A DNA stretch of 64,000 nt from Cycas panzhihuaensis (lineage: Eukaryota; Plantae; Cycadophyta). Shown one piece after another: positions 2,099-52,400 of the stretch (position 1 is the first letter of the stretch; every line of letters begins with the position of its first letter). The stretch is taken from NCBI GenBank assembly GCA_023213395.1, contig CM041465.1, positions 89,721,741-89,785,740 of the forward strand. The letters run 5' to 3'. The position numbers and the translations under genes are program-made. A model generated the notes under the pieces. That model made no database searches. It was given only the letters and a program-made list of their open reading frames with translations, and was not told the origin of the DNA.

Positions 2099-2217
2099 TG
2101 ATGGAAAAAATATGGAGCCAAAGTGCTCTGATACCAAATGATGGAAAAATATGGAGCCAAAGTGCTCTGATACCAAATGATGGAAAAAATATGGAGCCAA
2201 AGTGCTCTGATACCAAA
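2099..2217 (-). repeat. 3 tandem copies of a 40-bp unit containing the tRNA-iMet PBS
   Basis: TGATGGAAAAAATATGGAGCCAAAGTGCTCTGATACCAAA at 2099-2138, 2139-2177 (one A fewer) and 2178-2217. Confidence 0.97.
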
Positions 2218-2623
2218 TGTAGGAAAATATGCTTACAAACTAACAGGTTAGAACATATATCAAATAAGTATAAACTAGTATTGCATCAATACAGCAGTGT
2301 ATCACCATTACAATGGCATAAACACCTGAGAGCCTTGTTGTTCAATCCATTGTAGTAGAATGAGTATTACAAATCTTCCTCAAAAGTAGGTAGTGTCTAA
2401 AGACATCAGGGTTGTACACCCCTTAACATTTATAGTTTGGGGGAGGAGGGAAACTCCTCAACCCCTGAATTCAAATTAATAATAAAATAATACTAACTTA
2501 ACTCAAATGGAACTAACTCAACTTACCTTAACTTACCTTGACATGTTGAGCATCACATGTCTAAATTGAGGTGCACAATCTCGGTAGGTAAGAGGGAGTT
2601 GAGTGATGACATTACACCCAACA
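2099..2623 (-). repeat. 3' LTR (includes three PBS-containing units at the U5 end)
   Basis: Core 2218-2623 matches 7525-7929 with 7 substitutions and 1 indel by manual count. PPT lies immediately inside. Confidence 0.95.
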
Positions 2624-2634
2624 TTCTCCCCCTT
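2624..2634 (-). promoter_or_regulatory. Polypurine tract
   Basis: Minus strand AAGGGGGAGAA immediately precedes TGTTGGG of the 3' LTR. Confidence 0.9.
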
Positions 2635-2703
2635 AATGTCAGTACGAACACTTGTATCTTTTCCTTGAACTTGTGGGCGGTACTTGAAAAAAACTTTAAA
2701 ATT

Positions 2704-3324
2704 CTAATCTTGATCTTTGTCAATGCTTCTCACCCTTATAGTCACATATATCTCTTTATTATAGAATGATGTAGGAAGACTATAGGTAGATGAAACTTGA
2801 TGCAAAAGTAGATGAATAGCTATAATTTGGACTTGAACTTTTGTACACTTTATGCTTTGAACAGTTGTCATATCATCAGGTTCATTCTTCGTTATGTCAT
2901 AAGATTCGTCTTCATGATGCTCCCCCTCAAATGGAGGATCAAATCCTTGTGCAACAAGGTGGTCCTGCATTTGATCTGAATCTTCATTGGTGTTGCCGTT
3001 ATGATCTACCTGTTCTGTCACCTGTCTCACATGCTCATCAAAAGTTTCATCAAATACATTGGGGGTATCTCCCCCATAAATAGAAATCAATAAATCCCAA
3101 ACAGGCTTAGATGTTGTCAGTTCAGAAACCAGTGAAAAAATATCATCAGTAATAGTGCAAAATAATAAACCTAAAATTTCATTATCTTTTCTAAAGTTTT
3201 CTTTAATGCTAAGGTCAAATTCATGTTGTAAATACTTTAAAAGATCATGTTCAATAAAATAAGTTTGCATGGTGTCATACCATAGTGAAAAGTTATGGCC
3301 ATCGAAAATGGGGAATTGTGCCAT
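2704..3324 (-). CDS. Truncated Ty1/copia-type Gag (open 206-aa ORF)
   Basis: N-terminus PIFDGHNFSLW..M..Y....DL...L and KD...L..L...I.DDIF........K.VWD.L...Y are typical of the copia Gag N-terminal/UBN2 region. An acidic tail follows, with no zinc knuckle. Confidence 0.8.
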   Translation of the reverse strand: MAQFPIFDGHNFSLWYDTMQTYFIEHDLLKYLQHEFDLSIKENFRKDNEILGLLFCTITDDIFSLVSELTTSKPVWDLLISIYGGDTPNVFDETFDEHVRQVTEQVDHNGNTNEDSDQMQDHLVAQGFDPPFEGEHHEDESYDITKNEPDDMTTVQSIKCTKVQVQIIAIHLLLHQVSSTYSLPTSFYNKEIYVTIRVRSIDKDQD

Positions 3325-5402
3325 TTTGAAAGTAATTTAATCAATAAGAAAATGATGATAAGATCAAGTAGAAATCTTGAGTAAACAATGAGATATAAAC
3401 TAGAATTTTCTTTAAAATTTTGAAAGAAGACAAGCTTTTTAGGATGTATATATATGCTCAACTTTAACAGATTGAAAACTATATTGAATGAGGTCAGAAT
3501 AGCTTAAAATTTTATCAATATGTAGATTGCTGAGATGTGAATCCAATAAAATAAACGGTTTTGAAAATGGATACCAATAAATCACGTTTTGAATGAGGCA
3601 AAGGTATGAACCTCCTTGTGGAGCCTAACAGGAGCAAGGTAGGCAAAAATTGCATAAAAATACTAATTAACCCTTAGAAAAGATGAACAAATGATCAAAT
3701 ATTATTGATGAAGTAATTAATATTCTGCCAATTGAAAATTTTGAAAAATATATTAAACAGTTGTAAAAAATAACAGATTTAGGCCAATAGAATACCTCAA
3801 TTTTGACCGATTTGAAATATAAGAAAAATGTGTCAAAATATATGGAAAAATATATCACAATGAAGAGAATCACCACTTCCCAACGGTTTGACGGAAATGA
3901 AATCTGATAAAAATTGTAAAAGTTATAGTGAAAAATGTAACAAGTGTCTTTATGAAGGATGTTCAAGAAATAGGCAAAAACAACTAAATTTCTTATTTTA
4001 GCGATTAAAATATTAGTGAAGATGAACTCAAAAAATTAAAGTAGAAAATGGGTATTAAAGTTTATATGACGTAGATCACTATAGAGAAAATTTGGGCACA
4101 AAACAGTTTACCAGAAATAAATGACAGCCAGTTCTAAAACTGATTTTGTTAAAAATGTAAAAAATGCTGAAATTTTGAAAGTCCAATGTTAAAAAGGTCG
4201 AAACAAGGTCAAATGGGCACCAAATTGGTCTTATGACCAGTTGAAATCAGAGTACAAAAAATTTCTGATCTATTGGCGTAGGTTTCGTCTGAAACCGATG
4301 AGCCAACAGGAAGTTATGGCCACAAAAGCGCCAATAACCCTATGAAAAATAAAAATTTGAAAAAAAATAAAAGGAAAACGTTTAAAAACCTTTTTAAAAA
4401 TGGGTAGCAGTCACGTGATGGTGAAATAGAACTGAGGGCTGAGAGTTTAAACCCTTAAAATCGGATTTGAAAAAATCATATAATAAATCTTAATTTTTTA
4501 AACTTTATATTATTAAAACAATAGAAAATGATATTCCAGACGCGAATTATAAATCGAAATCTGCACACTTAAAGGGGCTGCACAAATGTAAATAAGAAAC
4601 GACTAATATATAAGAAAAGAGCTATCAATATATTAATGAAGTCGGCTGCCAATATATTAATGGTTGTGCTGTCCGCCGATATAATATATATGTAATATAA
4701 AAGCTGAAAACATTCAAGCGCCTTGTCATACCAACGGGAAAGGACAGATATATAATATAAAAGTCTGAAATGGGAAGATGAAACACAGAGCTGTTAATGC
4801 TGAAAATTTCAGACGCCAATGATAAGAAGTTGTGCCGCTCCCAACGCAGACGAGCGCCGAATGCAGACGCAAACGCCAATGCCAATGATAATCGAGAATC
4901 GCCGACGCCAGTGAAGTACTAGCCGTCTGGCGGGCAAACACGAGCAATACACTAGTTGCGCCAATTCAGGGTTCGAAGCAGAGTGCTGAACGTAATTATC
5001 AATGCAACAAACACGATTGCAATTATTAATGCAACAAACACGATTATTAATGAAGAGTGCGAATGCGATTATTAATGAAGAGTGCGCTGTTATCAAGTGC
5101 TGGACCGTAGGGCACCAGAACAAAACCACCGCGCATTTAAGATGCTAGAAAAGAAACCACCATGCACAAAAATGTGAGAGACGCTGGAAGAGAGACGCTG
5201 CGCAACGCGCCAATAATGAAGCCACTGCGGGCGTCGAGGATGCCAAACGCCATTATTAATGACCACCGCGGGCTGCGCGACGGGAGGAAAATGGGAAGAA
5301 CATTGTCAGTTAAATAGAAGACGAGAGGCACTGCACAGATTGCGCAGATCTGCAAACAATCCGTTGTCGTTGTACCAGAGGAGAGGAGGTTGTGTCACTC
5401 GC

Positions 5403-5846
5403 AACTGTGAGATTAAGAAAATTATATACGCCAAAGCGAATGAAAAGGTCACAAGCGATGTGGATCCTAATTTTTATCTTAAGTATACAGATATACATGT
5501 GAGCGTGCCTTGCGTGGAGCAAGACTTCATGCTAGAGCAGTTCACGCTGCACCAATGCTGGTTGAGGGATATTACATATGGTGCCCCAATCATTGTTGAT
5601 GTTGAATACACAAGAGGGAAAGAGATTATTTGAACGAAAAGAGAAAGAAGGGTAGGGAGCTCTTATAATTGGAAGAATGCCTATCATGCTACGAAGTTGC
5701 CGTTGTGTGCTCAAAAAAAAAAAAAAAAAGGTCTAAACTTGCAAAGTTTTGTAAATGTCCTCTTGATCCAGGAGGCTATTTTGTTGGTAAGGGGACTGAG
5801 AAGGTTATTTTAATCCAGGAATAGCTCTCCAAAAAATCGAATAATA
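5403..5846 (+). pseudogene. NRPC2: Captured fragment of RNA polymerase III second-largest subunit
   Basis: [28 protein letters not shown]...[23 protein letters not shown]...[16 protein letters not shown]...[38 protein letters not shown] and QEQLSKNR are RPC2-type rather than RPB2-type. Contains stops and frameshifts; no intron visible. Confidence 0.9.
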
Positions 5847-5891
5847 TTTTATAGTGTTTTTAACCTGAAGAGCCCTATGGTTGTTTTGTCA

Positions 5892-6060
5892 GATGAAGTG
5901 CAGGTCTTAAAGCATAAGATCTTATGGCTTGAAGCTAACAATGCAGCCCCAAGAAGAGCTACAGGAATGCCGTGATGGCTCTCAACTTCTCGTGGATCGT
6001 GCAATAGATCTATGGTTCAAAGAAGATGAACTTTGTCAATGGATACAAGAACTGAGTGGT
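5892..6060 (+). pseudogene. Captured fragment resembling the plant kinesin-4 (KIN4C/FRA1-like) post-motor coiled coil
   Basis: DEVQVLKHKILWLEANNAA/frameshift/QEELQECRDGSQLLVDRAIDLWFKEDELCQWIQEL resembles the remembered kinesin-4 stalk motif E.Q.LK.KI..LE..N.EL..ELQE.R......RA.D....KD.L...IE. Confidence 0.65.
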
Positions 6061-6077
6061 CAAGTTATATCCTTTAT

Positions 6078-6214
6078 CCAGAGGTCACAAAAGATGTTGT
6101 CACTATTGCAAAAAAATTGAGTTCAAAGACCAAGCAAAGAATGTTGGTGCAAGTCTTGTTAAGCAAGTTGCTAATGCAACCAATGATGCAACTGGAAATG
6201 GGACAACATGTGCT
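6078..6214 (+). pseudogene. HSP60: Captured fragment of mitochondrial chaperonin-60
   Basis: PEVTKDVVTIAKK/frameshift/EFKDQAKNVGASLVKQVANATNDATGNGTTCA matches plant mitochondrial PKVTKDGVTVAKSIEFKDK.KNVGASLVKQVANATNDVAGDGTTCA. Confidence 0.9.
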
Positions 6215-7470
6215 AATAACCTTGCATAATGAAGGACTTCTGGAAAACTATTGGCATATTAGTATGTGTATTTTATTTGTATTTTATAGAAATCGAAGTA
6301 TGCCCTTATTAGCTGAGGATGCAAAGAGGAGATGAAACTCTTCTCATATGCCTATCCTAAATCTATGATGAGCCTAATAATGGCTTCTACTTCCTGATAG
6401 AAAGTAGGAGGAAATGCCCAAAAAATGCAGGGATGTAATAGGAAAGCAGCAGAATGTAGAAAGCAGAATACAGAAACAATATGCCTTCTTTGGCCTTCAA
6501 GATAAACTATCAATAAAATTTTGAGAATTTTGTTGTATTCTTTTGTAAAGAATAAAGTAATTGATAGTTTTTGCACTCCTTTTTAGTCACAAATAAAAAT
6601 GCTTATGTGCATGAGATGTTAAAAAAATATGTAATGTAAAACATATGAGAAATGAAATATCAATGTGAGGAGCATACATTTTTCAAATATCTTGAAGAAG
6701 TATATCAAATAAATGAAATGCACATGTATTTGTATATGAAATATTTCTAAATCTGTGTATATATCAGAAATATGAGTTTAGATATGAAAATGTAATGAAA
6801 AACACAGTAAACGAATGTAATAGATTTATAGCTGAAAATAGGCTTCAAAAACTTCCAATATACAGATCTGCAATGTAATCTTCTCCAAAAATATTGAATA
6901 TGCTCCAGAAACTGTAGATCTGTAAAAAACTTGAAAATATAGTCAAACAATATAATGAAAAATATAGATCTGAAATGGATGTAGCAAAAAATGCTGAAAA
7001 TTTTTGATAAAATAAGCAGATCTATAATAAAATAGCAGATCTGAAGTAACAAATTACAGATCTTTAAAGAAAACTTGATAACTTTTGTATTCAGTTGATG
7101 CTCTTTTACAAATCTGTAAAAAATATCAAATAAATAGACAAATAACTTGTAAACTGTCAAAATATATGATAAATCTGTAGATCTGAACAGAAAATAACTC
7201 AAATATAAGAATAAACTTAGATGTATATCACTTGCTGCTGAAAATCCTTTGTAGATCTGCACAAATCTGAAAATAGATCTCAGTAATATTTGTTGAACCA
7301 GAAATATAGCTCAATAATAATAAAAAATGCTGAAATAATATATAGAACTTGCTAAAAATTTCAGAAAACCAATCTAGTTAATATATATTGCTTGTGAAAA
7401 AAAATCTGTTGTAGAATGCCAGAAGATCCTGTTGATCTTCTTCAAAACTTCAGCAGGTCAGCAATCGCCT

Positions 7471-7482
7471 GCTCTGATACCA
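7471..7482 (-). promoter_or_regulatory. Primer-binding site (tRNA-iMet)
   Basis: TGGTATCAGAGC on the minus strand, 2 nt after the 5' LTR end. Confidence 0.95.
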
Positions 7483-7484
7483 AA

Positions 7485-7929
7485 TGATGGAAAAAATATG
7501 GAGCCAAAGTGCTCTGATACCAAATGTAGGAAAATATGCTTGCAAACTAACAGGTTAGAACATATATCAAATAAGTATAAACTAGTATTGCATCAATACA
7601 GCAGTGTATCACCATTACAATAGCATAAACACATGAGAGCCTTGTTGTTCAATCCATTGTAGTAGAATGAGTATTACAAATCTTCCTCAAAAGTAGGTGG
7701 TGTCTAAAGACACCAGGGTTGTACACCCCTTAACATTTATAGTTTGGGGAGGAGGGAAACTCCTCAACCCCTGAATTCAAATTAATAATAAAATAATACT
7801 AACTTAACTCAAATGGAACTAACTCAACTTACCTTAACTTACCTTGACATGTTGAGCATCACATGTCTAAATTGAGGTGCACAATCCTGGTAGGTAAGAG
7901 GGAGTTGAGTGATGACATTACACCCAACA
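7485..7929 (-). repeat. 5' LTR (one PBS-containing 40-bp unit at the U5 end, 7485-7524)
   Basis: Direct repeat of 2178-2623, followed on + by the TSD TTTGC. Confidence 0.95.
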
Positions 7930-14200: not shown

Positions 14201-14779
14201 AAGTTGGGGTTACAGATTTGTCCTAAAAATATGGTGATAGAAAAGAAGTAGGCCGAAATTAATTTTGTTGTAATTTTTGCACTTTCACCCCAAAATCTAT
14301 AGTGCAACCACTCAAAATTTATAGGGCGAGTAATTTCGTATCAAATTCACCCTCCAAGAACCCTTAATGGCACCTCCTAGGTCACTACTCTGATACCACT
14401 TGTAATGAACCATTACACCAATTGTAATGAACCTGAATCAAAAGAGAAAAATCTAATTACATATGGTAACACAAAAGTCAAAATTAAATATAAGAGTATA
14501 AAGCATCCATAATCACATGTATCAATGGGCCTCTTTAAGGGGGCAACCTCCAATACATAAGATAACAATACTTCCAGATGATTCTCTCTCCTACATTACA
14601 TACATATATATAGGGCTATTAAGACTGCCCATCTCTTGGACTTATGAATATGGGATAATTACAAGAATAGAAATATAAGATTTGAGAAGAAAAGAGATAA
14701 GGGTTGGGTTCTTAACAGTCCATCTCTAATGCTGACCATAACTATTGATAATAGATACTTGCTAGCTCCCACTATCACA
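11262..14779 (-). mobile_element. 5' half of a chromovirus-like (Reina/CRM-type) Ty3/gypsy element: LTR, PBS, gag, protease and start of RT
   Basis: PBS TGGTATCAGAGT at 14387-14398 and LTR inner end at 14401 (outer end about 14779, uncertain). Gag from about 13284 (PKVEIRKFNGKDVRTWVSQMEQFF), protease [34 protein letters not shown]...[11 protein letters not shown]...[13 protein letters not shown]. Cut at 11262 by the left-hand element. Confidence 0.85.
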
Positions 14780-34576: not shown

Positions 34577-34994
34577 CATTTCCTTAATTTTAGGCCTTTA
34601 TTCAAAATCTAGGAATCGTAGATATGAATTATTTCCTTGCTCATTAGATATGTATTTTCTACTTCTCATTTTGTTAATGTTGTATTTGATTACTTGCATT
34701 TACTTGTCATCTTGTCTTATGTAGTATTATGATTAAGTATTTATTTAGTTTACTTATGAATATTATATTTTTCTCATAATGATAATGTCTCTAGTTGTAA
34801 GAATTTAGAATTTAACTCTAATACTATATTGGAACATACTCATTATGTGTAATAGAAGTATATCGAATATATATAATGTATCAATCATATCATGAGGAAT
34901 GGATGCAATTCATGTATGTGAAATCAATATATCAAGCAATAACATGAATATAAAGTATAAATATCAGAAAGCATGCATACACCACAAGAGAGAT

Positions 34995-35022
34995 TATATA
35001 TATATATATATATATATATATA
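34995..35022. repeat. (TA)14 microsatellite inside an LTR
   Basis: Read directly; the sister LTR has only a short TATATAT at about 44736-44742. Confidence 0.95.
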
Positions 35023-37581
35023 ACCCAGTGTGGAAAAATCTATGGGAGAAAATTGGAGTTAGGAGCTCCTTTTTATGATGAATGAATTATATCCCCAAGT
35101 CAATCTTCTTTTCTCTACCTTTCTCAAGTTCTCAAGTGGTGTGTGTATATTTTTATATGAATAGTTACCTCATGAATAGCCTATAATATCTTTTGAACTA
35201 TTTTATTATCCAATAAGATATTTACATAAATAAGTGTACATATCACTTCTCTTAATGCTTTTGTATAAGTAGGATTTTATGTGAGTCCACTATTATTTAT
35301 ATTAAATATTAGATATATGAATAATTATATATTCCAACACTTCCCCTTAATGATTAATATCTTTAAGTCTTCATCTTCAACCTTGGTCTTTATTCTTTCC
35401 CTATATGCTAGATTCTATAACTTATAGAATGTATCAATTTGTATCAAGTTGTATCACATGTAACCTATAATCAAGCCATTCTATAATTAGTTGTGATCAT
35501 TAGTGACTAGCTATGACCTTCCACTTGTAAAACCTATAAATCAATCATCAATCAACCAAACAACTAATCTCAATTTCATGACTTCTACTTGTTATATTTA
35601 TATGAAGTTTTCTTCTTAATAACTTTATATATTTACCTATAAAGTTATTGTAAAAGATAAACATTTTCAACCTACTATCTCAATAATAAAACTAATTACT
35701 AATGTCTATATAAAATAATAACCATCTACCAAAATATAAGGGTAACCAGTTATTATAAATGCCAATTCTCTAAGATATGTTTCTTATATGTAGTTCATTA
35801 ACAAACAAAAATAATACTAATTATTAGAAAAAATACTATTACAAGAGTAGCATAAAATCTTGTACCTCTTGTATATAAGAATAACAACACAATTTGTGTA
35901 TTGTACAAGAGTAGTCTCATTCATTTCACCTTTTATGTATGAGTAAATAACTTGCATATTGCCTTCATTCATACTTCTACACATACCTTCTGCAACTTTC
36001 TTTTAATAACTAATAAATAACTCATCAATAGTATTCAATTATCTAAACATACTAACTCCAGGAATAAGGCATATTGCTTGACAAAGTTAAGTTAGTTATA
36101 ATAAGGTAATATAAATAATATATTCTTGTACCTCTTATTATTTATAGTAAGTTAGATTTTTCACTAATAAACACATATCTAATATGAATTGTACTTCTTA
36201 TCAGTTGAATTTGGTATGCCAATTCAATAATATATGAGACTTCTTCTCCATGTCTTATAAACAAGTGTAAATAACAAATCAACTTATCTCTTTAATATTA
36301 AACAAACATCAATCAATGAGCCCTTCATTAATATTAAGTATTGTCATCAATCATAATTCATCAATAAACCAAATGATCATTGCATTTGATTAGTAGATCT
36401 CTTCACTAAATTACATGTAATAAATACCAAGTGGAATTTTCATCATGTCTAGTATAACTGAGATTTCCATATTAAATTATTCATCAAATGTGTCCAACAT
36501 CATGAATCTTTCATTAATTTTGAGCCATAAACTATTATAAATGAGCCTTTAATGTGTTATTTTAAACTAAACTTACTTTTTCTTTCTTTAATTATCATTA
36601 ATATCATCATTATGCAATTGAGAGCCTTTAAATACATTAAAAAATGCCAAAATAGATTTTAAAAGCCTAAAAAAATATGTCTTTTATGATGTCAAAACTA
36701 TTTCTATCAATTCTTCCTATTAAAATCTCTATCTTCTAATTTTTGAAATATGCCTTGTGACTACTCATTTCAGCTACTTCAAAATTCTCTTTCCAACACA
36801 ATTAATAATTCAAAAATTAGACTCCTTGATGAAAAATTATAATCAAAATAATCACAGTATATCATAAAAAATTAAACATTCCTTAAGAAAATGAATTTAG
36901 CTTCTTTGACTAGGCTTCTAGCCACATTAACTCCTTTATGTGATTGATTACTAATGGCTTAAGGGCTTATTGATGGACTTTATAAAAGATTTAATTTGAT
37001 TAAATGTATCAAAATATCACATCTATTTAATAGCATATATGTATTCATTTTGTTTCATATCAATTGGTATAAGTTTATTACATATTTCACATCAATCATT
37101 TACTAATAGAATAAGGTCTCATGATGCTTAACATGCCTTTAACTAAGTATGTTTTCTACTACTAATTATAAAATCAGGTGAGAGGGGTAGTCTCATAGAA
37201 TTTTAATCATTTCTATAAGAGGGTAGCCTGTATTGGTGAGTGCAACTAGTAACAGTTCTCCTCATTACATAATCTTGGTGGAATTGATTCATACCTACAT
37301 GGTCTATAGAATATGAATTAACATGTTAAAAATAAATGTCCATATAAATCAATAAATAACATATCATTAATTTGTATTATTCATCATGTAGCTTCATCAT
37401 CTATATGTAACTTTAAATCATCTTCATCTTGCCCCAGAATCTCAATCATATATTAATAGCATAATTAGCTTTTGGATTATCAAAACACATCTTAAATTTA
37501 CTGTGATACTAGCTTTATCATTAGTTCTATACTAGATTTGTACTTACATACTATTGTCTCAACTAACTTATGTATAGGCTT

Positions 37582-40500
37582 TATTAAATAATGTCTAATG
37601 TTCTCTTTTAATATTACTTTATGTAACTCTATTATTGTAAGAATTGTTAAGAAGAGCAGTTATCTTTTCAATGAACCTCTCCACCTATTTATTCTCCTAG
37701 ATTCTAGGAAGAAAGAAAGGAAAATAAAGAGCAAAATGTAATAATTTGGTCAAGGTTACATGGAGACGATTATGAGGCTGCAGACATTGACAACTGTGCA
37801 TATTCTCAATTTTAGAGAGAGAGGATGAGATCCTTCTCTATATGTAATATATAATCTATTTATTTATTAATATATTTATATTTTGAGGTGGTTTTTTTAA
37901 ATCCCCATTAGGGGTTTTTTTTCACCTGTTTAATATCTATAAGTATTTGTATGATTATTATTTTTTATTTAAAGCAAATTACTTATTCTATTAACATTTA
38001 ATCAAATATTCCATCTCTCCATCATGGTATTAGAACAAGGTAGTTAACAAATTTAAAATAACATACAAAATTGTAATAAAATTTAAAACAACAAGATTTA
38101 CAAAATTTATACGAACAAAAATTTATTATTTTTTATTACATAGCTAACATCAATTTTTTTTTTTTTACATCTATCTTTTAGGTTTGGCCTACTAAGATTA
38201 CATAATGTCGAATACAAAATATATGTAAGGATATTATACAAAAACAGGTTGATAAACCCTCTCTCAAACATATTCTATGAAGACTACTGACATGAAACCT
38301 TAGTAAAGGGGAAATCCTTCATTTAGCATAGAAATTTACCTAAAACCACCTGCTACAACCTAGAGGAGATCTTTGCAGGACAAGCCATCTATGTGAAGTA
38401 GAAACCTCCAATATAACTTCATACTAAAAGGACACTAGAAATCATCCAAGTTTTGTGATGAGACAAAACCCTGACTAAAACCAAAGAGTGCCATTAATTA
38501 ATGCCAAGAGCATAAGTAAGATGCTGAGAACGTAGATGAGACATCAAGAGTGCAGATGAGATGCTAAGACATCAAGACCATTGATAAAGATGCCAAGAAG
38601 CACCTATGAAGACGCAAAGAATGATCCAGTCACTAATAAGTAATCAATACCCTCCTCAAACTTGCACAAGCTACATAGGAGTTTAGCATATGCCAAATCA
38701 GTTGATGCCTCCTCAAATCTTCACAAACTACATGAACGAGAGACTAGCATATGTCATATTAGTCGTTGCCTCCTCAAATCTGTGCAAATTACATGAACGG
38801 GAGCCAAGAATTCGCCATCATCTTTATGAATGAGTGAAACAAACCCTAGGGAATACTCCAATGAATGGTATTAAACACTTGTTTAATTCTTGGTTGGATC
38901 TGACTCCTTTGTTAAATCATAATAACATCATTATTACTTTAATAATAATTTTGAACCGCCTCCTTTAATAGATTATACTATTCTCGAACCCCTTTTAATC
39001 TTTAATAAATCTAACTTCTTCCTCAATTACATTTTAAGTAATTTTTTTTTTCCTTGTTTAAACATAAGAACCCACTTAATCCTTCATAATCATGCTTTAG
39101 TCAATTGATAAATCTAATTACATCCTAGTTACCCTTCCTTAATCATATTTTAATTTAGAAGGGTAGAACTTAAGATAGTTAAAGTTTTTCATATTTTCTG
39201 ATGTCTGATCTAACCTAAGTTATTATTAATATGTAAGCCCCCCCTATTGACCCTCACCCTGATCACTTAGGCCTCCTACATGACTCAGTCCAAGTAAACA
39301 AAGGGGTTAAACCCTTATTCAATTTTTTTATTTTTTCTTTCAAAGGGGGTACCTATGTTCTTTCAATTGTAACTTTCTTATACAAAGTCAGAATTTCATT
39401 CTGAAAGAAACATTAGATTCCTGACTCAGAAATAAACCTTTTTTTGTTGGTCTTTTAAATTCTTTTAACATCATTTTGAGCTAAAGATATTCGCTCCAAG
39501 ACTAGTCTTCTAATCAACCTAGTAAGATGAGGTACATGCTCTAAATTTATAATTTTTTCTCTTATACTTACTTAAAATACTTATCATAATGTTATTATGT
39601 CATTTTATGCAAACACTCAAATTAATAATTTAATACTTAAAATTATTTAATCACAATTATTATTATGATTTAATTATTAATTGATTAATGATTTTATGTG
39701 TTGAGCTAGTATTGTAATCTACTTTATCTTCACATATTGCCCAAATCTCTTTCTTTAAGAAGTTTTAAATTATTGGGTTTTCAACATGGATCTTATACCA
39801 AGAACAACCTCATGTGTACTAATTCTAGTGTTAATTGGCTCTAATTATGTCGACTAGAAAAATAGAATATCCCATCAACTTAAATAGTAGAAGATATGGC
39901 GATATATCACAAGTGAGTTTCCAAAACCTAAAGACAAAACATCAGAAGTGTATATAGTCTATCTGATGAACTGTGATGGAGCCCTATATAACATATTATC
40001 ATCCCTCTATCCAGACATTAGTAGGTAGTTCTCTGAAATAGATGATCTAGCCACTGTCTAGAAAACTCTTAAGGAAAAGTACGATAGGGTTGATACACAA
40101 TAATTAGTTGCTTTAGAATAATAAATGTATGATTTAAATTATGATTTTTTTTTTAAAGTTGAATATTTTTTGTCTAAACTTTAACTTATTAATAAAGACC
40201 TAATAAATTGTATCAAATCTTCTACAAAAGTAGGTGACAAAGAAGTTATTGTAACATGTGCAAAAGATGACGATACACTTGTCCATCTTGCAATTAACAT
40301 TTTACCAAAATAGTTTAATCTCTTCAAAACCGCTAGACAATAGGTAGGGCATCCACTAATTACTTTTGATCAATTAATGAATCAACTTATCGAACATCAA
40401 AACATGTTGATTCAGACTAAAAAATTAAAAGATCCTTCACAGACTCTTTTTTTTAAGTCACAATCATTTACTAAGTCTAAACATCAAAATAACTATCTAA

Positions 40501-43500
40501 ACAGTCATCATTGTCATCCCAAATTCTAAAAACCACACAAAGGTTCATTTACTCAAAATATTTCTTATCATAACACTAAGTATTATGGATTTTCTAAATA
40601 TTAGAATACCTATAAACAAACATTTCTGAAAAGGAATACTATGAATACTAATCCTAATTAGAACATCAGTTGTGCCCTACTATCATAAAAAAGGATACAC
40701 CATTAATGTTTGTAGAAATAGAATTGCCTCTAAAGCCTGGAAAGCTTCTAAAGGGGTCCAATCTTGATCCAACAATTCTCATAACTTTCTAACTACTTCT
40801 GTAACAACCTTTTTTAGCACCAACTACTCAACCACCCTTGTGGATTCTCGATTCAGGTGCTTCCCATCACATGACAGGATACTAAGAATATCTCAATCTA
40901 TATCAACTTGATTCAAACTCCAAAGAAAATATTTCTTTTGGGAGTGGAACCCAACTCAAAGTCAAAGGATTAGATGATGTTATTTTGAAAGATGGTTAAA
41001 TTAACAATGTATTCTACATTCCTAACTTATTACCTAATCTTCTTTCAGTATATCAAATCTGCTAGAAAGATCTTGTTGTAGAATTCTATAAAGATAAGTT
41101 TATTATCAAACAACCAATAAACAAGTTTAAATTAATTATCTTGGGACTTATTTATAGCTTAACAAGCTTCCAACATTCTAAAACCAAAATTTTTAGTGCC
41201 TTTATAGCAAAATGTGACCCTGTCAATAAGCTTTGGCATGCAAGATTTGGTCATACGAGTTACAGAAAACCCCAATATCTAAGTAAGAATGACATGGTTC
41301 ATGGCTTACCTACACTAAAAACTGTCTATGGTGTTTGTGAAGCCTGTGTAATAAGCAAATAACACATGGATCCTTTCCCAAATAACACTATCTTTTGAGA
41401 AAAATCTCTATTTGAACTTATTCATTCTGATATCTACGGTCCATTTTAAGTTCCTTCATACTCTGTAAGTAGATATTTTATCACGTTTATTGATGACTTT
41501 TTAAGAAAATACTAGGTATAAATGTTTAAAATGAGAAGTAAAGTATTTGGCATATTTGTTGAATACAAAACCTTAGTAAAAAATTAAGCAAATTCTAAAA
41601 TCAAAATCTTTAGAACAGATAATGCTAAGGAATACTTAAGTAATAATTTTACTAAGTACTTTAAAAAGCATGGAATATAATTTCAGCATTCAGTAGCATA
41701 TACTCCTTAACAAAATAGTGTTATTGAACATAAAAATCATACACTTGTTGAAATGACTAGATGTATGTTACATGCAAAAGGTCTTGACTTAAAGTTATGA
41801 GCAAAAGCTATTGCTTGCTCCAACTATTTATTAAATCATTTACCATACAAATCCTTACAAAATATTACGCCAGAATAAAAATGATCTAGATGTAAACCTT
41901 CTGTTAAACACTTAAGAATCTTTAGCAGCATTTCTTGAGGACATGTTCCGAAAGAGAAATACTAGAAACTTAATCCTAAAAGTTTCAAATATATCTTTGT
42001 TGGTTACAGTGAAGAAATCAAAGCTTACAAACTTTTAAATCCAACCATGCATAAGATTTCAATACTTCGTAATGTTATATTTGATGACAAAGGCTCTTCA
42101 TCAAAAACTTCTTATATGAAACTTCTAGTTGAAAATCTATTAACTAATACTTATCTAATTAATCCCAATGACATTCAAGCTGACCCTGAATCAATCAAAT
42201 CCTTATCTACTCAAGTTCAAAACTGGACTTTAAAAGAATCTAATACTTCTACTACACCTAGTTAGTCCACTTCACCAAAGCAATAAATTAACAATATAAA
42301 CAATCTATTTGGGCTTAGAAAACTCTTTTTGATGTTGGTTCTAATGCTGTTAATCGTTTGGATACCAGACAAACTTGTTCACAAAAACTTCAAGCTAATT
42401 TTTCTCTAATGGCCAAAATCATGGCCAGTGATGATCTTAAAACTTTTAAGCAAGCACGTAATAATCATATATGACAACAAGCCATACAAGCTGAAATAGC
42501 TGCTCTTAAAAAGAACTCAACTTGGGATTTAGTTACTCTATCTCTTAAAAATAATATAGTTGATTATAAATGAGTTTATAGAACTAAGTTTAACTCTAAA
42601 GGAGCAATTGAGAAACACAAAGCTCGTTTAGTCACAAAAGGCTTCTCACAAATTGATGGTATTGATTATAATAAAACCTTTGCTCCAGTAGCTAAAATGA
42701 ACACTATTAAGACTATTATAGCTCTAGCAACTAAATTTAGTTAGGAAATCCATCAGATGGATGTAAAGAGCACCTTCTTAAATGGTGATCTTAAAGAAAA
42801 AATTTAAATAGATCAACCTCCTAGATTTGTTTGTAATCCTAACCTTGTTTGTAAATTATGAAAATCTATCTATGGCTTAAAACAAGCTCCTTAAGCTTAG
42901 TATACAAAAATAGATGATTATCTTATATAAAATGGATATATTAAATGTATTAGTGATACTAATCTTTATTTTAGATGTGAAAATAATAATATTACTATCT
43001 TAATTCTCTATATAGATGATATAATCATCACTGGATCCTTACTCTCTAGTATTCATCAATTAAAATTAATCTTGATGAACAAATTTGAAATGTCTGACTT
43101 AGGTCTTTTACACTATTTTCTAGGATTACAAATTTTTTAAACTGATTCTGAAATAAAGATATCTCAATCTACATATATGTTAGATTTAATCAAATGATTT
43201 AATATGGAAAATACTAAATCCACTCTAAATCCTTTATAATCAGGTATTAAACTATCTACTGATTATTCTACACCACTTTATGATCCAATAACATATCGAT
43301 AACTCATAGGTAGTCTCATTTATCTAACTCATACTCATCTTGATACCTCCTATAATGTTGTCTTATGCTCTAGATATATGTAAAATCCTCATGAATCTCA
43401 CTGGAAAGTTGCTAAATAGATTTTAAGATACCTACAAGGTATAATATATTATGGCTTAACCTATAACTCTTACAAGAATAACCTAAAATTAATAGATTAC

Positions 43501-44479
43501 ATAGATTTAGATTGGGCAAGAGACTCTGATGATCATAAATCTACTGCTACTTATGTTTTCTTTTTAGACTCTTTACCAATTACTTAGTCCATTAAAAATA
43601 TGCAAGCCTTAACTTTATCCATAATTGCAGTCGAATATCAAGCTCTTGTTGAAGCCAACAAAGAATCACTCTGGATCAAATATCTTTTAAATGAGTTTGG
43701 TTTATTTTCTAACTCACCCATTAAACATAATGTTGATAATCAAGGAGCCATATCTATTGCTACTAATCCAATTGCTCATTCAAGTACAAAACATATAGAA
43801 TTACATCAACATTTTATATGTAACTTTGTAAATGATAAAACTATTCACTTGTCTTATTGTCCTACAGATATACTGATTGTAAATATTCTTACAAATTTAT
43901 TGAATGAAGTAAAAATTTTAAAGCTCAGAGATTTGTTGCAGATAAAAGAAGTCTTCATCAAAGTGGGATCAACATGCTAAAGGCTTCTTCATCTTGTCCT
44001 TTGTTTTTTTAATTAAAAGATAACATTAAAGGGGGATGTTAAATAATGTCTAATGTTCTCTTTTAATATTACTTTATGTAACTCTATTATTAGAAGAATC
44101 ATTAAAAAGAGCAGTTATCTTTTCAACGAACCTCTCCACATATTTATTCTCCTAGATTCTAGGAAGAAAGAAAGGAAAATAAAAAACAAAATGTAATACT
44201 TTGGTTAAGGCTGCATGGAGACGATTATGAGGCCGCAGACGTGGTCAACTGTGTATATTCTCAATTTTGGAGAGAGAGGATGAGATCCTTCTCTATCTGT
44301 AATGTATAATCTATTTATTTATTAATATATTTATATTTTGAGGTGGCTTTTTTTAATCCCCATTAAGGGGTTTTTTCCACCTGTCCAATATCTGTAAGCA
44401 TTTGTATGATTATTATTTTTTATTTAAAGCAAATTACTTATTCTATTAACATTTAATCAAATATTCCCTCTCTCCATCA
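37582..44479 (+). mobile_element. Degenerate full-length Ty1/copia element
   Basis: LTRs 37582-38024 and 44037-44479, PBS TGGTATTAGAAC 38025-38036, PPT AAAGGGGGA 44028-44036, TSD GGCTT/GGCCC. Gag from about 39786, protease WILDSGASHHMTG, LWHARFGH, CEACV, RT LYIDDI, RNase H VDNQGAI..H..TKHI to 43980. Confidence 0.93.
38640..38810 (+). repeat. Three ~60-bp degenerate tandem repeats in the copia leader
   Basis: CCTCCTCAAA..T...CAA..TACAT recurs at about 38651, 38708 and 38769. Confidence 0.8.
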
Positions 44480-47400
44480 GGCCCGTTACTTATCTCTACA
44501 AGATCTTTTATGATATGCCTTTGATACCATATAAGAATTTAGAATCTAACTTTGATACCATATTGAAATATAATGATCATATGTAGCAAAAGTATATCAA
44601 ACATGTATAATATACCAACTATATCATGCAGAATGTATATAATTTATGTATATATAATTAACATATTAAGTAATAACATGAACATAAAGTATAAATATCA
44701 TAAAGTATGCATGTACCATAAGAGAGATAATAGATTTATATATGGAAAATCCCATATGGAAAAAACTATAGGAGAAGGTTGGGGTTGGGAGCTCCTTTTT
44801 ATGATATCAAATGAATTACATATCTAAGTCAATCTTCCTTTCTCTACCTTTCTCAAATTCTTGAGTTGTGTGCATATATATTTATATGAATAATCACCTC
44901 ACGAATAACTTGTAATATCTCTTAGTTTGTTTCATCATCTAATAGGATGTTTACATGAATAAATATGCATAAAGCATCTCTTAATACTTTTGTGTAAGTG
45001 GGATTTTATATAGGTCTACTATCATTTATATTAAATGTTAAATATATCAATATATATTCCAATACTAGCAACATCTCCTGTATATTTTGAAGCTATAATA
45101 AAATTGAGTTAATATATTAAAATAGGCATCTATTCTTCCATTATAACATCACTCTCTTCTATTATTTTTTTTATTCTTTACATTTTTTACCTTTATTTTA
45201 AATGCAATTATTGATTCTACATAGCTTATTATATAGATCTTTTTAAGTAAATATGATTTGAGTACTCATAGGTCTAAGCCAGATTTTATATAAAAAAGTT
45301 ATACTTCTTTTAGAATTCTACCTTCTTCCATAGCCTTGTTTCCCACTTTCTAAGGTTAATTTCATAATAAATCTTTAAAAAATAACATTTTTCTCAAAAA
45401 GAAAAACCAACTTTAATTTAATTTAGATAAACATTTCTCTAAATTAACTCACTATAAATGTTGATTCCTTAGGTTTGTTTTATATTAAGCCTCATTTTGG
45501 TTCTAAACCTTAAGATTTCTCCTATTTTTTATTTACTTCCACTAAAAAAAACATAATTTATTTGATTCTTAATCTAATTTTACCCTTACCTAGAGGATTA
45601 CATCCTAGAAATTATCATCATATTTATAAAGTTCTTTTATTATTTGGTTTGTAAATTTCTAATTAATTTTGTCACCTACCTAAATCACATTTATTTTATA
45701 TAATTCAAGAAGTACATTATTGATGTCTTAATAATAAATATAGTATAATATTATAGATATCTTAATAATAAAACCAGTATTATATATTTTATGTAACATA
45801 TTTATTATTCATATACTATGATATTTCCATGACATTTTCTATAGTATTTTATGTTTTGATGATAGTCCTTTTAGTTTTATGAACTCTTATTTCTCTCTTT
45901 TATTTATTTTTTCATTTCTTCACTCATAATTACTTGATTTTTTATTTCATTGTTCCTCACCTATAATAACCTTGCATGATTGATTATCTCTCTCACTTGT
46001 TTGATTTTCTCTTATTGATCATCACTTTGGAATAACTCTCATAGTAACTTATTCCCGTGACTCATGCATTTTTTTATTTTTAATGAAGCCATTTTTTATT
46101 CTTTCTTAGATAGATCTAATTTGAGATTTAGATTTTTTTCTAATACATAACAAGTGCCTTAGTATTTTTTTTCTCTAGTATGTTAAGAGGAAGAAGAAGA
46201 TTAAATAAAGAGAAAATGTACACTAGTTCATTATCAAATAAAAGAGTTTCTTAAGTAAACAGATTAAATAACAACCTATATATCTTGTTTATCTTATTTT
46301 ATGTCTTTAATTTGATTGATTGTTACAAAGAAAATAATAGTAAGAACTTAATTTATCTATTTTTAAAATATATATAAAATAAATTGATGTGGTAAAAGAA
46401 CCTAGAAACCCTCATGAAAGATACTTTATTTACTCTCTATAAATATCATCACTTTATCATATTTTGATATAATTTATAACCATATACTTATAAAATTATC
46501 TTTTATTACTCATAAGGATAATATCTCTTGTGTGTTTTATTCATTTCTTTTAGGGTCTTCTCTTGGCTCTAGATATTTCCTTAGATTACAAGAATAAGGT
46601 CCATACCAAGAAAATATTTTAGGGATCATACTAGGAAAATCACTTCTCATATAGATTTATGGGTCTTGCTCATAAGTTTCATACAATGGAGGATAACCCT
46701 CATTTTTTTTGTACCCCTTAGGAGAATACCTTTATAACACCTAACTCCTCATAAACTAGCATTTTCTCCACTTATATCTTTGGAAGTAGATATAGACTTT
46801 CCATAATTTGATGCTTCTATAGAAGAATATCCTTAAATCATATTAGTTTCTCTATTTACCACACAAAATCCCACTTGTACTTTAAGTTATAATGCAATTA
46901 TATCTAAATTCTTAGGTTCTATAAGAACATGTACCTTTTTATTTAGTTGGACTATGTTGTAAGCCTTAGGAGTACCTTCACAATCTAGTTTATCTCATAA
47001 TATTTTTTTCATTTTAAATCCATGGCATTAAACCCCATATGAGCATTCATATCTACTTTAGGTTTTAATCCTCTTACATAAGGAGTTTAACTTAGTTAGT
47101 ATTATATAAGTGGGCCACAACCTACTCATGCTTACCAACCCCCATTATCACAATATCATATGAGCTCTAGTTAATATGTTCAACCTCTTATACAAGTTAC
47201 TTATCATATAATTTCATAACTACTTGTTCAACAAGGACCATATAAAGTTTCCACTACTCCATCTATTGATTTAGCTCAAGTTAATATTGCTTTGTTAAAT
47301 CAAGGATCTCACAATCAAACTATTACTTCAAGGTATTAAAACCCTTAAGTTAACTATGATCCACTTCTTTAATGAATGTTAACATCACTTAATAATACCT

Positions 47401-49470: not shown

Positions 49471-52400
49471 TATTTGATATAGAAAAAAAAATCTCACACT
49501 TATATTTTTAACATATTGATGCGTTTATCAGTGATTTGTTTATTAATTTCTCTTAATAATTTGTTGAACGACTAGCATTTGTTTGTTCATATCATCAAGT
49601 TCTCTATGGGTTCAATAGTGATTGGTTCTATCAATCTTATAGTGTTATCTATTTAACCATAGACTTGTATGATCATATATATAATCTTAAAATATGGGTT
49701 TAGTGGTGGCTAGTTTACACTAACTTCACATTGTCATTAATTAGACCATATACTAGATTAATTCACAAAGAGATGTTATAGCTAAATGGAATGAAATACT
49801 TGAATCATTATTCTTGGATGTCACATCCCATGTTGATTCTTATTAGAACATAATAATTTTACATTATGGCATTATTCTCCTTGCTAATTAATTACTACAC
49901 TCTCCTATGTCCATCATATTATTCTTTTTAATATAAGTCTTAGATTACCAATCTTATTTTTATTATACTATTCACTCATACATATAGGGGAAAACTAAGA
50001 AAATACTAGTCTTTTTATACTTACTTAGATTACTTGAGATCACACTAGTAATTTTGTATTAGTATAGCGTTATTTATATCTTTCTTACTCTTACATAGTC
50101 TCTATAATAGTGAATATTTTAATGATTATTTTATTGCTCATTCATAACACTAAATATTCTAGATCTAATCCCTAATATGTCATACTTATACAAAGCCTTA
50201 GGAAAATATTGATAAAACTTTGGAAATATTATATATACAAATATAAGATACAATGTTAACAACATTCTTCATTTATTATATGACTTCTATCAAGGTTCAT
50301 TATTAAGAGGATAAATTATTTCCTCATTTTTGGCATTTCCCCAAAATCTAGAAATGTTAGATATAATTTACTTTCTCTCTAATTAGATATATTTAGATAT
50401 GTTTTTACTACTTGTCATTTGCTTGATGTTATATTTGATTATATGAATTTACTAATCATCTTAGCTCACATGGTATTATGATTAATTATTCATTTAATTT
50501 ACTTATGCATATTATATTTTTCTCACAATCATGATGTATTTAATAACATCTCTCATATGTTTCAGAGCTATAGTAAAGTTCAGTTAACATAAAACAAACA
50601 TCTATTCTTCCATTGTAATGTCACTTTCTTTTAATTTTATTCATTATTTTTACATTTTTAACCACGACTTTAAATACAATTGTTGATTTTGCATAACCTA
50701 TTATGTAGATCTCTGAGTACGTATGAATAAAGTATTCCTGGTTAAAACTAACTCTATATTAGGAAGTTATACTCCTTTTATAATTTATCCTTCTTTGATA
50801 GTCATATTTCCCACTTCTCAAGGCCAACTTCATAATTAATCTCTACAAAATAGTATTTTACAGTAAAAAATTAACTTATATATTAATTTAGATGGTCTAT
50901 TCTCTAAATTGACTTATTATAAATACATATTCCTTAGATTAATTTTGTCTTAAACCTCCTTTAGGTTCTAAACCCTAAGATCACTTCCATTTTTTATTTA
51001 TTTCCACTTAAACAAGGCATAATATATTTGAATATTTATCTAATTTTACCCTTAACTAAAGGATTTTTGCATGTCCTAGCCATTATCATTGCATTTATGG
51101 AGTTTATTAATTATTTAGTTTATAAATTTCTTCTTAATTTTGTTATGCCATCATTTTTTTCCTATATCACATTTATTATATAGAATTCAAATAGTATATT
51201 TCATATGTCTTAATAATAAAATTGCTATCATATATTCTATGTTATCTATCTATCATTCATGTCTTACAGTATCACTATGAATTTTTCACTAATTTTTTAG
51301 AGCATTTTGTGTTTTTTTTAATGTTCCCTTTAGTAGTATAAACTCTTATATCTTCCTTTTGTTTGATTTTTTCTTTGTTTTTAACTTATAATTACTTAAT
51401 TTTTTATTTTATTATATTTTATTCATAATAATTTCTTACATGATTGATTATTTATCCCATTTGTTTAATATTCTTCTCTTTTTTATCATCACTTTAAAAG
51501 AATTTTCATAATGACCTATTCTCATGACTCATATATTTCTTTATCTTTGATGATGCTCTCTTTACTTCTTTTCTAGATAGATTTTATTTGAGATTTAGAT
51601 TTTTTCTAATATATAATGGATGCTTTAATAAATTTTCTCTAGTATTAATTTGTATGAATAAGAAGATTAGATAAGGAGCAATTGCACACTCACTCATCAT
51701 CAAATAGATGAGTCTCTTAAGTAAATAAACTAGAAAGAGTCTTTACACCTTTTTTTTTGTCTTCCATTTGATTGATTATTGCAAAAAAAAAAAATAGAAA
51801 GAATTGAATTGACTTATTTTGAAAAAATATATAAAATAAATTGATGTGGTAAAAGAATCTAAAAACTTTCACGAAAGATGTTTTGTTTTCTCTCTATAAA
51901 TATCCTTACTTTATTATATTTTAATATAATTAGTAACCATACACATATAAAAACATATTTCAATACTTATAGGGATAATATTCCTTGTATAGTGTATTTT
52001 ATTCTTTTCTTTTATGGTTTTATTTTAGCTTTAGGTATTTCTTTAAATCAAAAGAATAAGTTCCATACCTAAGAAAATAGAAGGAGATATAAAACCTACT
52101 TTGTGGACCTTTAGCAAAGCTCGGGATCTAGTCTACATAAAAGTCTTACATTATATCTATAAATATAAGGATGATGTGATACTTAGTGATAAATCTCCTC
52201 TTTTATATTTTTCCTCTTATATAATTTCTTACATGTTAACTTCATGCTCTATACAAATTAGTACACAAGTATGAATGATATAGTTAGAGCTCTCTCATCT
52301 CCTTGAGTTGATTGATCATTGGGACTTAACCCCCTTATACTATAATTAGAGCACCTTTAGAGGAGATAAGCTTAAAATAACCTTATAACCATGGATCACA

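What the first reader, a model, noticed from the sequence alone, without database searches (positions are those of the whole stretch)
44518..44560. U5 extension equal to an 18-nt tRNA-iMet copy plus 13 nt: possible fossil of aberrant plus-strand strong-stop transfer
Seen: both LTRs of the 34796-45064 element end in a 31-nt extension (34796-34826 and 44530-44560). In element sense they read TGGTATCAAAGTTAGATT-CTAAATTCTTATA and TAGTATTAGAGTTAAATT-CTAAATTCTTACA. The first 18 nt differ from TGGTATCAGAGCCAGGTT only by C>T/G>A changes (14/18 and 12/18), whereas the working PBS matches about 11 nt. The inner, older end (TTCCAA[C/T]A) is the better inverted repeat of the LTR start TGTTGGAA, which gives the direction of change. 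Known: RT copies 18 nt of primer tRNA up to m1A58 (tRNA sequence quoted from memory of plant tRNA-iMet). Inference: plus-strand strong-stop DNA with its full tRNA copy jumped 13 nt upstream of a U5 end, creating a longer LTR that then replicated.
Basis: partly seen in the sequence, partly recalled or inferred. Interest (0 to 1): 0.75.

Follow-up and report, generated by a model that had tools for sequence, protein, structure and literature searches.

The report
Old primer site captured inside LTR
Both terminal repeats of this plant jumping gene end in an extra 31 bases that hold a second, decayed primer-binding site, most likely a duplicate of the element's own long primer site and leader rather than a fresh 18-base copy of the tRNA, and the same layout recurs in many other retrotransposon families.

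Summary
The 31-nt extension is real: it lies on both LTRs, inside the target-site duplication, and is the normal LTR end of an abundant family. It starts with a PBS-like 18-mer directly behind a former LTR end. The 18-nt tRNA-copy reading is not supported. The working PBS is not an 11-nt site: it matches 13/18 here and up to 17/18 in relatives, so a long natural PBS explains the likeness. In relatives the captured site has G or A at nt 13 in 28-77% of depth, so the changes are not only C>T/G>A. Ty1/Ty3 plus-strand strong-stop DNA stops after 12 tRNA nucleotides. A metagenome scan found tandem PBS units at 111 loci; 0 of 134 units match tRNA nt 13-18 fully, and many copy the element's own leader or U5 end. 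A young element in this window has 1 unit on one LTR and 3 on the other. Best reading: PBS plus leader was duplicated, likely by RT template switching, and priming from the second copy pulled the first into both LTRs.

The parts
44530..45064 (-). 5' LTR of element B (535 bp), extension included
   Evidence: 429 matches, 83 transitions, 20 transversions to the 3' LTR, K2P 0.23
34796..35339 (-). 3' LTR of element B (544 bp), extension included
44543..44560 (-). captured, decayed PBS-like 18-mer in the 5' LTR (14/18 to the tRNAi-Met complement)
44530..44542 (-). 13-nt tail that forms the present LTR end (CA in many relatives); resembles the leader behind the working PBS with a 2-nt gap
34809..34826 (-). 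captured PBS-like 18-mer in the 3' LTR (12/18)
34796..34808 (-). 13-nt tail of the 3' LTR, ending CA
44561..44568 (-). inner, former LTR end of the 5' LTR (7/8 inverted repeat of the LTR start), directly followed by the captured PBS
34827..34834 (-). inner, former LTR end of the 3' LTR
44512..44529 (-). working PBS, 13/18 here, up to 17/18 in relatives (nt 15 stays T)
44480..44511 (-). leader behind the working PBS, up to the nested element C
35340..35349 (-). polypurine tract before the 3' LTR
   Evidence: sequence
34791..34795 (.). target-site duplication, left copy (right copy 45065-45069, 4/5 identical)
7483..7522 (-). comparison: the single 40-nt PBS unit at the 5' LTR end of young element D (12-nt tRNA match only)
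2099..2217 (-). comparison: three PBS units at the 3' LTR end of element D, inside its GCAAA target-site duplication

Best explanation
The extension is a second PBS-like site plus 13 nt sitting behind a former LTR end on both LTRs, and it is most likely a decayed duplicate of the element's own long PBS and first leader bases, likely made by reverse-transcriptase template switching and likely drawn into both LTRs once priming moved to the downstream copy. Shown: the anatomy, its presence at the LTR end across the family, a natural near-18-nt working PBS in the family, and the same anatomy in many other families. Inferred: (1) a short minus-strand or post-transfer plus-strand product re-annealed across the U5/PBS/leader junction and repeated PBS plus about 20 nt; (2) tRNAi-Met priming at the second PBS made minus-strand strong-stop DNA that includes the first PBS, so both LTRs inherit it; (3) the new end read, or came to read, CA and was accepted by integrase; (4) the inner PBS, no longer needed for pairing, drifted in the active lineage (nt 15 is A in 96-98% of depth, nt 13 is three-way polymorphic).
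For: Working PBS in relatives agrees with the tRNA complement at nt 12, 13, 14, 16, 18; a group of 24-30 clipped contigs per run at 44524 shows the agreeing letter at nt 9 as well. Extension nt 13-31 aligns to the own leader with one 2-nt gap, 11 and 9 of 19 identical, p 0.020 and 0.042 against random window sites; nt 19-31 alone p 0.030 and 0.055. Nt 15 of the working PBS shows no variant at 5% or more, which fits a PBS inherited from the genome, as reported for Ty1/Ty3. Metagenome scan: 111 loci, 50 clusters, 48 analysed; captured PBS matches tRNA nt 13-18 at mean 1.67/6 (cross-family control 1.57), 0 of 48 at 6/6; unit ends copy own U5 by 5 nt or more in 21 of 48 (control 2.3%) and unit starts copy own downstream sequence in 14 of 48 (control 0.2%). 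L092/L093: two 655-bp, 98% identical LTRs of one contig both carry two 42-nt PBS units. L043 has a 31-nt PBS-plus-leader unit upstream of a copia gag. Element D in this window: 1 vs 3 units, 12-nt match.
Against: The leader likeness is weak, the scoring scheme was chosen after seeing it, and the sequence is AT-rich. Nt 15 of the extension is A or G while the working PBS has T, so the copy must predate the T or need a transversion. No relative lacking the extension was seen (no joint; none among 15 of 45 joints shown), so the pre-duplication state is not observed. The 14 of 48 leader-type count is inflated because some last copies are themselves repeat units at 3' LTR ends. Only 10 of 28 downstream ORFs tested in the survey hit a retrotransposon family (one below cut-off). 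Nothing here separates an RT event from a DNA-level duplication. B's superfamily could not be determined.
Confidence: 0.55

Rival explanations
1. One reading: plus-strand strong-stop DNA read 18 nt of tRNAi-Met (to m1A58) and jumped onto a U5 13 nt before its end; nt 1-18 are a decayed tRNA copy and nt 19-31 a donor U5 end.
For: Both window copies differ from the 18-mer only by C>T/G>A. Nt 15 is a purine like the tRNA complement, unlike the working PBS. The tail ends like an LTR and is nearly as good an inverted repeat of the LTR start as the inner end.
Against: Ty1/Ty3 plus-strand DNA ends after 12 tRNA nt and the PBS is not inherited from tRNA (PMC5371799 section 2.2; PMC7472051 passage). 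Nt 13 from the 3' end is position 64, which carries a bulky ribosyl-phosphate in eukaryotic initiator tRNA (PMC7694415 passage; that this causes the stop, and that plant tRNAi-Met has it, is recalled; coconut has an annotated Rit1 gene). 0 of 134 surveyed units match nt 13-18 at 6/6, one at 5/6. Natural long PBSs exist in this family, in element C (14/18) and in print. Nt 13 is often G or A in relatives. No donor U5 in the window (best 9/13 among 8 ends; background 2.1% per test).
Confidence: 0.15
2. Same jump, but with the ordinary 12-nt tRNA copy: nt 13-31 came as one block from the U5 end (or a ready-made PBS unit) of a co-packaged sister family.
For: In 6 of 29 surveyed clusters with a clear U5-like suffix, that part starts at nt 12-14. 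Element D's unit is a 12-nt core plus a variant of its U5 end. L118 has the same six letters at nt 13-18 as the 5' extension and a similar AT-rich tail ending in CA.
Against: The 19 nt do not match B's own U5 (9-10 of 19), no donor is known, and the model leaves the tRNA-like and leader-like character of nt 13-23 to chance (about 0.4%).
Confidence: 0.15
3. A DNA-level tandem duplication (replication slippage or break repair) of PBS plus leader in one integrated master copy, later spread by normal retrotransposition from the second PBS.
For: It gives the same anatomy as the best explanation and needs no RT error; this genome has many short tandem duplications (32 rows).
Against: Duplications centred on the PBS recur in about 50 clusters with boundaries at the PBS start, and element D differs in unit number between 98% identical LTRs, which points to events during reverse transcription.
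Confidence: 0.12

Closest known systems
Ty1/Ty3 plus-strand strong-stop synthesis on initiator tRNA-Met (PMC5371799 section 2.2, read; PMC7472051, passage)
   Same: Same primer tRNA class; the 12-nt core of plant PBSs and of the surveyed units equals the 12 nt copied; dead-end strong-stop DNAs with a tRNA tail exist and could re-anneal.
   Different: No PBS fixed inside the LTR is described there; the reported copy is 12 nt, not 18.
Retroviral plus-strand transfer with an inherited tRNA copy (HIV-1, Moloney MLV; PMC7472051 passage; the 18-nt/m1A58 stop is recalled)
   Different: Other primer tRNAs; in this family a fixed mismatch at nt 15 of the working PBS argues against routine correction from tRNA.
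Direct-repeat gain and loss by RT template switching, and engineered two-PBS retroviral vectors (recalled, Voronin and Pathak; not read) ; recombination during reverse transcription in plant LTR elements (PMC6894440, passages)
   Same: Priming at a downstream PBS copies the upstream PBS and spacer into the LTR; repeats can collapse at strand transfer, as in element D (1 vs 3).
   Different: Here natural, fixed in a high-copy plant family and recurrent across families.
Drosophila Gypsy second tRNA-binding site (PMC1635307, passages) and Cassandra tandem arrays (PMC7215508, search listing only)
   Same: More than one primer-tRNA site per element; tandem structure ascribed to retroelement replication.
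   Different: Gypsy's second site is near the 3' end and pairs with another part of the tRNA; Cassandra arrays repeat whole elements, not a 31-nt junction.

Membership tests
LTR retrotransposon | two direct LTRs with TG...CA ends | tested here: met
   535/544-bp LTRs; TG start and CA end intact in the 3' LTR, decayed to TA in the 5' LTR
LTR retrotransposon | 5-bp target-site duplication, PBS and PPT | tested here: met
   CTAGT/CTAGC; PBS 44512-44529; purine tract 35340-35349
Ty1/copia superfamily | copia-type gag, integrase, RT or RNase H remains | tested here: inconclusive
   no Pfam hit in frames read with X at stops, no tblastx hit; 2.2-kb internal part is too decayed or non-coding
Fossil of an 18-nt tRNA copy | captured site matches tRNA better than the working PBS does | tested here: not met
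   14 and 12 vs 13 of 18 here; relatives' working PBS up to 17/18
Fossil of an 18-nt tRNA copy | only deamination-type departures from tRNA at nt 13-18 across the family | tested here: not met
   nt 13 is G in 10-45% and A in 18-38% of depth
Fossil of an 18-nt tRNA copy | last 13 nt are the U5 end of a donor family | tested here: inconclusive
   best of 8 LTR or unit ends in the window 9/13; host genome not held
Fossil of an 18-nt tRNA copy | RT reads plant tRNAi-Met past position 64 | not testable with these tools
   literature for Ty1/Ty3 gives 12 nt; no plant data seen
Tandem PBS units at LTR ends (duplication across the U5/PBS junction) | former LTR end directly followed by a PBS-like site inside both LTRs, then a working PBS | tested here: met
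Tandem PBS units at LTR ends (duplication across the U5/PBS junction) | spacer derived from own leader or own U5 end | tested here: inconclusive
   leader p 0.02-0.055; own U5 7/13, background 21%

The most novel reading that the evidence does not exclude
Plant LTR retrotransposons routinely lengthen their LTRs by a ratchet at the PBS: reverse transcription repeats the U5/PBS/leader junction, priming shifts downstream, and old primer sites become U5. The units record where RT jumps, most after 12 tRNA nucleotides, and this family may keep a rare read-through of the position-64 block to nt 18.
Probability: 0.3. Interest if true: 0.65.

Novelty: new variant of a known kind. Interest (0 to 1): 0.4.

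Why it matters
If general, PBS capture is an overlooked way for LTR ends to move and grow, and it makes annotation tools misplace LTR boundaries and PBSs. The units give a genomic read-out of where plant RT stops on initiator tRNA (12 vs 18 nt), a point settled for yeast Ty elements but for which I saw no plant data. Extra PBS copies in both LTRs would also add targets for tRNA-fragment silencing. For this locus alone the finding is an old, decayed example and less informative than young ones such as element D.

Tried and rejected
Host genome: none held, so no copy-by-copy family table. Family-specific pattern in metagenome contigs: 0 hits. Search for a tRNAi-Met gene to check the 18-mer: 36 viral loci with the 15-nt motif, 0 tRNA genes; none in the window; the 18-mer was checked instead against a paper's small-RNA table. 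Tandem-PBS pattern in viral contigs: 1 locus, not examined. Donor search for the 13-nt tail in the window: six 11/13 matches, none at a known LTR end. RNA folding of the junctions of B and D: not better than shuffles (z -1.07 and 0.02), so no support for a structural role. My by-eye reading of B as copia was dropped. One search listed variants only for 44514-44542 and one search showed 40 of 180 rows, so family letters at nt 9, 12 and 16 of the extension are unknown. Laid contigs must be 80% alike to this old copy, come from about half of each run and from related samples holding 24-25% of the words; depth shares are not copy numbers. Literature: searches for tandem or duplicated PBS at LTR ends showed no description of this layout in plants among the listed titles; the exact 18-mer was in no paper; four primary yeast papers or ids tried were not held. 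Passages of PMC10275265 and PMC2956550 gave nothing on plant position 64; PMC5372741 states it for yeast only; PMC6317226 gives primer types per lineage, not PBS length. No supplements were read.

Full report
Observation. Element B lies on the minus strand at 34796-45064. Its LTRs (535 and 544 bp) differ by 83 transitions and 20 transversions (K2P 0.23), and the 5-bp target-site duplication lies outside the 31-nt extension on both sides. Element C (37582-44479, plus strand) is nested 45 nt behind B's 5' LTR PBS start region. It follows a former LTR end directly, just as the working PBS follows the present end directly. The inner end is the better inverted repeat of the LTR start over 8 and 10 nt, but ties or nearly ties over 14 nt. 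B's 2.2-kb internal part gave no protein hit, so its superfamily is open.

The extension belongs to the family. Contigs of four public runs (three species labels, each holding 24-25% of the words of this stretch) were laid on the junction at 80% likeness. 1643-2838 records per run were laid; 37-59 contigs per group run off into unrelated flanks exactly at 44530-44532 (agreement 0.42-0.46), the mark of many independent insertions that end at the outer end. No contig skipped the 31 nt, and none did among the 15 of 45 joints shown.

The working PBS is long. The contrast between an 18-nt inner site and an 11-nt working site does not hold. Over 18 nt the working PBS scores 13/18 in this copy. In relatives it has the tRNA-complementary letter at nt 12 in 73-80% of depth, nt 16 in 45-56%, nt 18 in 94-96% and nt 9 in 26-34%; nt 13 departs in about 20% only, nt 14 and 15 show no variant at 5%, and a clipped group of 24-30 contigs per run also agrees at nt 9. 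That is up to 17/18 with one fixed mismatch, T at nt 15. Element C's PBS scores 14/18 with nt 14-17 intact, a caulimovirid has a 16-nt site (bioRxiv 10.1101/2025.07.25.666790, passage), and the 18-nt small RNA maps to copia repeats in Cryptomeria (PMC5846777, passages). In the extension, relatives move away from the tRNA: nt 15 is A in 96-98% of depth and nt 13 is G in 10-45% and A in 18-38%. The window's G at nt 15 is a minority state. Against my reading: A or G at nt 15 is closer to the tRNA complement than to the working PBS's T.

Mechanistic premise. For Ty1 and Ty3, primed by initiator tRNA-Met, plus-strand DNA ends after 12 nt of tRNA and the PBS is not inherited from the tRNA (PMC5371799 section 2.2; PMC7472051 passage). 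The 13th nucleotide from the 3' end is position 64, where Rit1 adds a ribosyl-phosphate to A or G of eukaryotic initiator tRNA (PMC7694415 passage); coconut has an annotated Rit1 gene (PMC10298058 passages). That this base causes the stop, and that plant tRNAi-Met carries it, I recall and did not read. A mismatch fixed at nt 15 of a high-copy family's working PBS fits inheritance from the genome.

Origin of the tail. Extension nt 13-31 align to the leader behind the working PBS with one 2-nt gap (p 0.020 and 0.042 against 20000 random window sites; nt 19-31 alone 0.030 and 0.055). This is weak and the scoring was chosen afterwards. Against 8 LTR or unit ends in the window the best match of the last 13 nt is 9/13 (element D; background 2.1% per test) and B's own inner end gives 7/13 (background 21%).

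Comparison set. In the first unit, nt 13-18 match the tRNA at a mean of 1.67 of 6 (cross-family control 1.57); 0 of 48 reach 6/6 and 1 reaches 5/6. Over all 134 units, 0 reach 6/6, 1 reaches 5/6, and 1 (L118) is deamination-compatible; in L118 the same letters follow the next PBS copy too. Unit ends copy the element's own U5 end by 5 nt or more in 21 of 48 (control 2.3%); unit starts copy the sequence behind the last PBS in 14 of 48 (control 0.2%; inflated by arrays at 3' LTR ends); 21 of 48 show neither. Among 29 clusters with a clear U5-like suffix it begins at nt 12-14 in 6 and at nt 19-20 in 3; in those 3 (L047, L050, L128) nt 13-18 match the own downstream sequence 6/6 and the tRNA 1-2/6. 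10 of 28 downstream ORFs tested hit retrotransposon families, copia and gypsy (one below cut-off), 1 hit PPR, 17 nothing, so not every locus is shown to be a retrotransposon. L092/L093 are two 98% identical LTRs of one contig that both hold two 42-nt units. In this window the young element D (2099-7929, LTR cores 400/408 identical, GCAAA duplication outside all units) has one 40-nt unit on its 5' LTR and three on its 3' LTR, each a 12-nt core plus a variant of its U5 end.

Model. Most likely (0.55) RT repeated the PBS and the first leader bases by template switching across the U5/PBS/leader junction; tRNA priming at the second copy then put the first copy into minus-strand strong-stop DNA and so into both LTRs; the inner site drifted. 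Rivals: 18-nt tRNA read-through (0.15), 12-nt tRNA copy plus a sister family's U5 (0.15), DNA-level duplication in a master copy (0.12). The anatomy and family distribution are shown; every step of the mechanism is inferred.

Novelty. Repeat gain and loss by RT template switching is a known kind of event. Five searches listed no paper describing PBS units fixed in plant LTR ends, but the library lacks most subscription journals. Earlier notes of this scan report like modules in other genomes; these are unchecked leads.

Noticed in passing
window 2099-7929 (minus strand): Young element D with 1 PBS unit on the 5' LTR and 3 on the 3' LTR inside one target-site duplication; a copia gag remnant sits near its 3' LTR (2704-3333, just below cut-off), with about 4 kb without Pfam hit upstream. 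A better test case than element B.
   Followed up: partly
window 37582-44479 (plus strand): Element C, LTRs 93% identical, inserted in B's leader just behind the PBS; its own PBS at 38025 matches the tRNA complement 14/18 with nt 14-17 intact.
   Followed up: partly
window 34578-34795 plus 45065-46616 and 50318-52079: B is itself inserted into one copy of a 1.8-kb direct repeat (74-76% identical), likely the LTR of an older element: three nested levels.
   Followed up: no
L055, L064, L065, L092, L093, L097, L117 and others: One family (24 arrays in its cluster) with a 42-nt PBS unit in one or two copies, present at both LTR ends.
   Followed up: partly
L041, L042, L118, L124, L141, L145, L146: Copia-like family group with several diverged PBS units in a row, each ending in a U5-like CA; L118 shares nt 13-18 with the 5' extension studied here.
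   Followed up: partly
L108 and L059, L121: Units whose U5-like part overlaps the end of the 12-nt core, a microhomology that fits a jump of 12-nt-tailed plus-strand DNA onto U5.
   Followed up: partly
L040, L089, L094, L148: Arrays of five or more identical 21-nt PBS units (L148, from the viral collection, has the same spacing but was not examined).
   Followed up: no
window 14387-14398 (minus strand): A further PBS-like site behind a CA end, partner LTR not identified.
   Followed up: no
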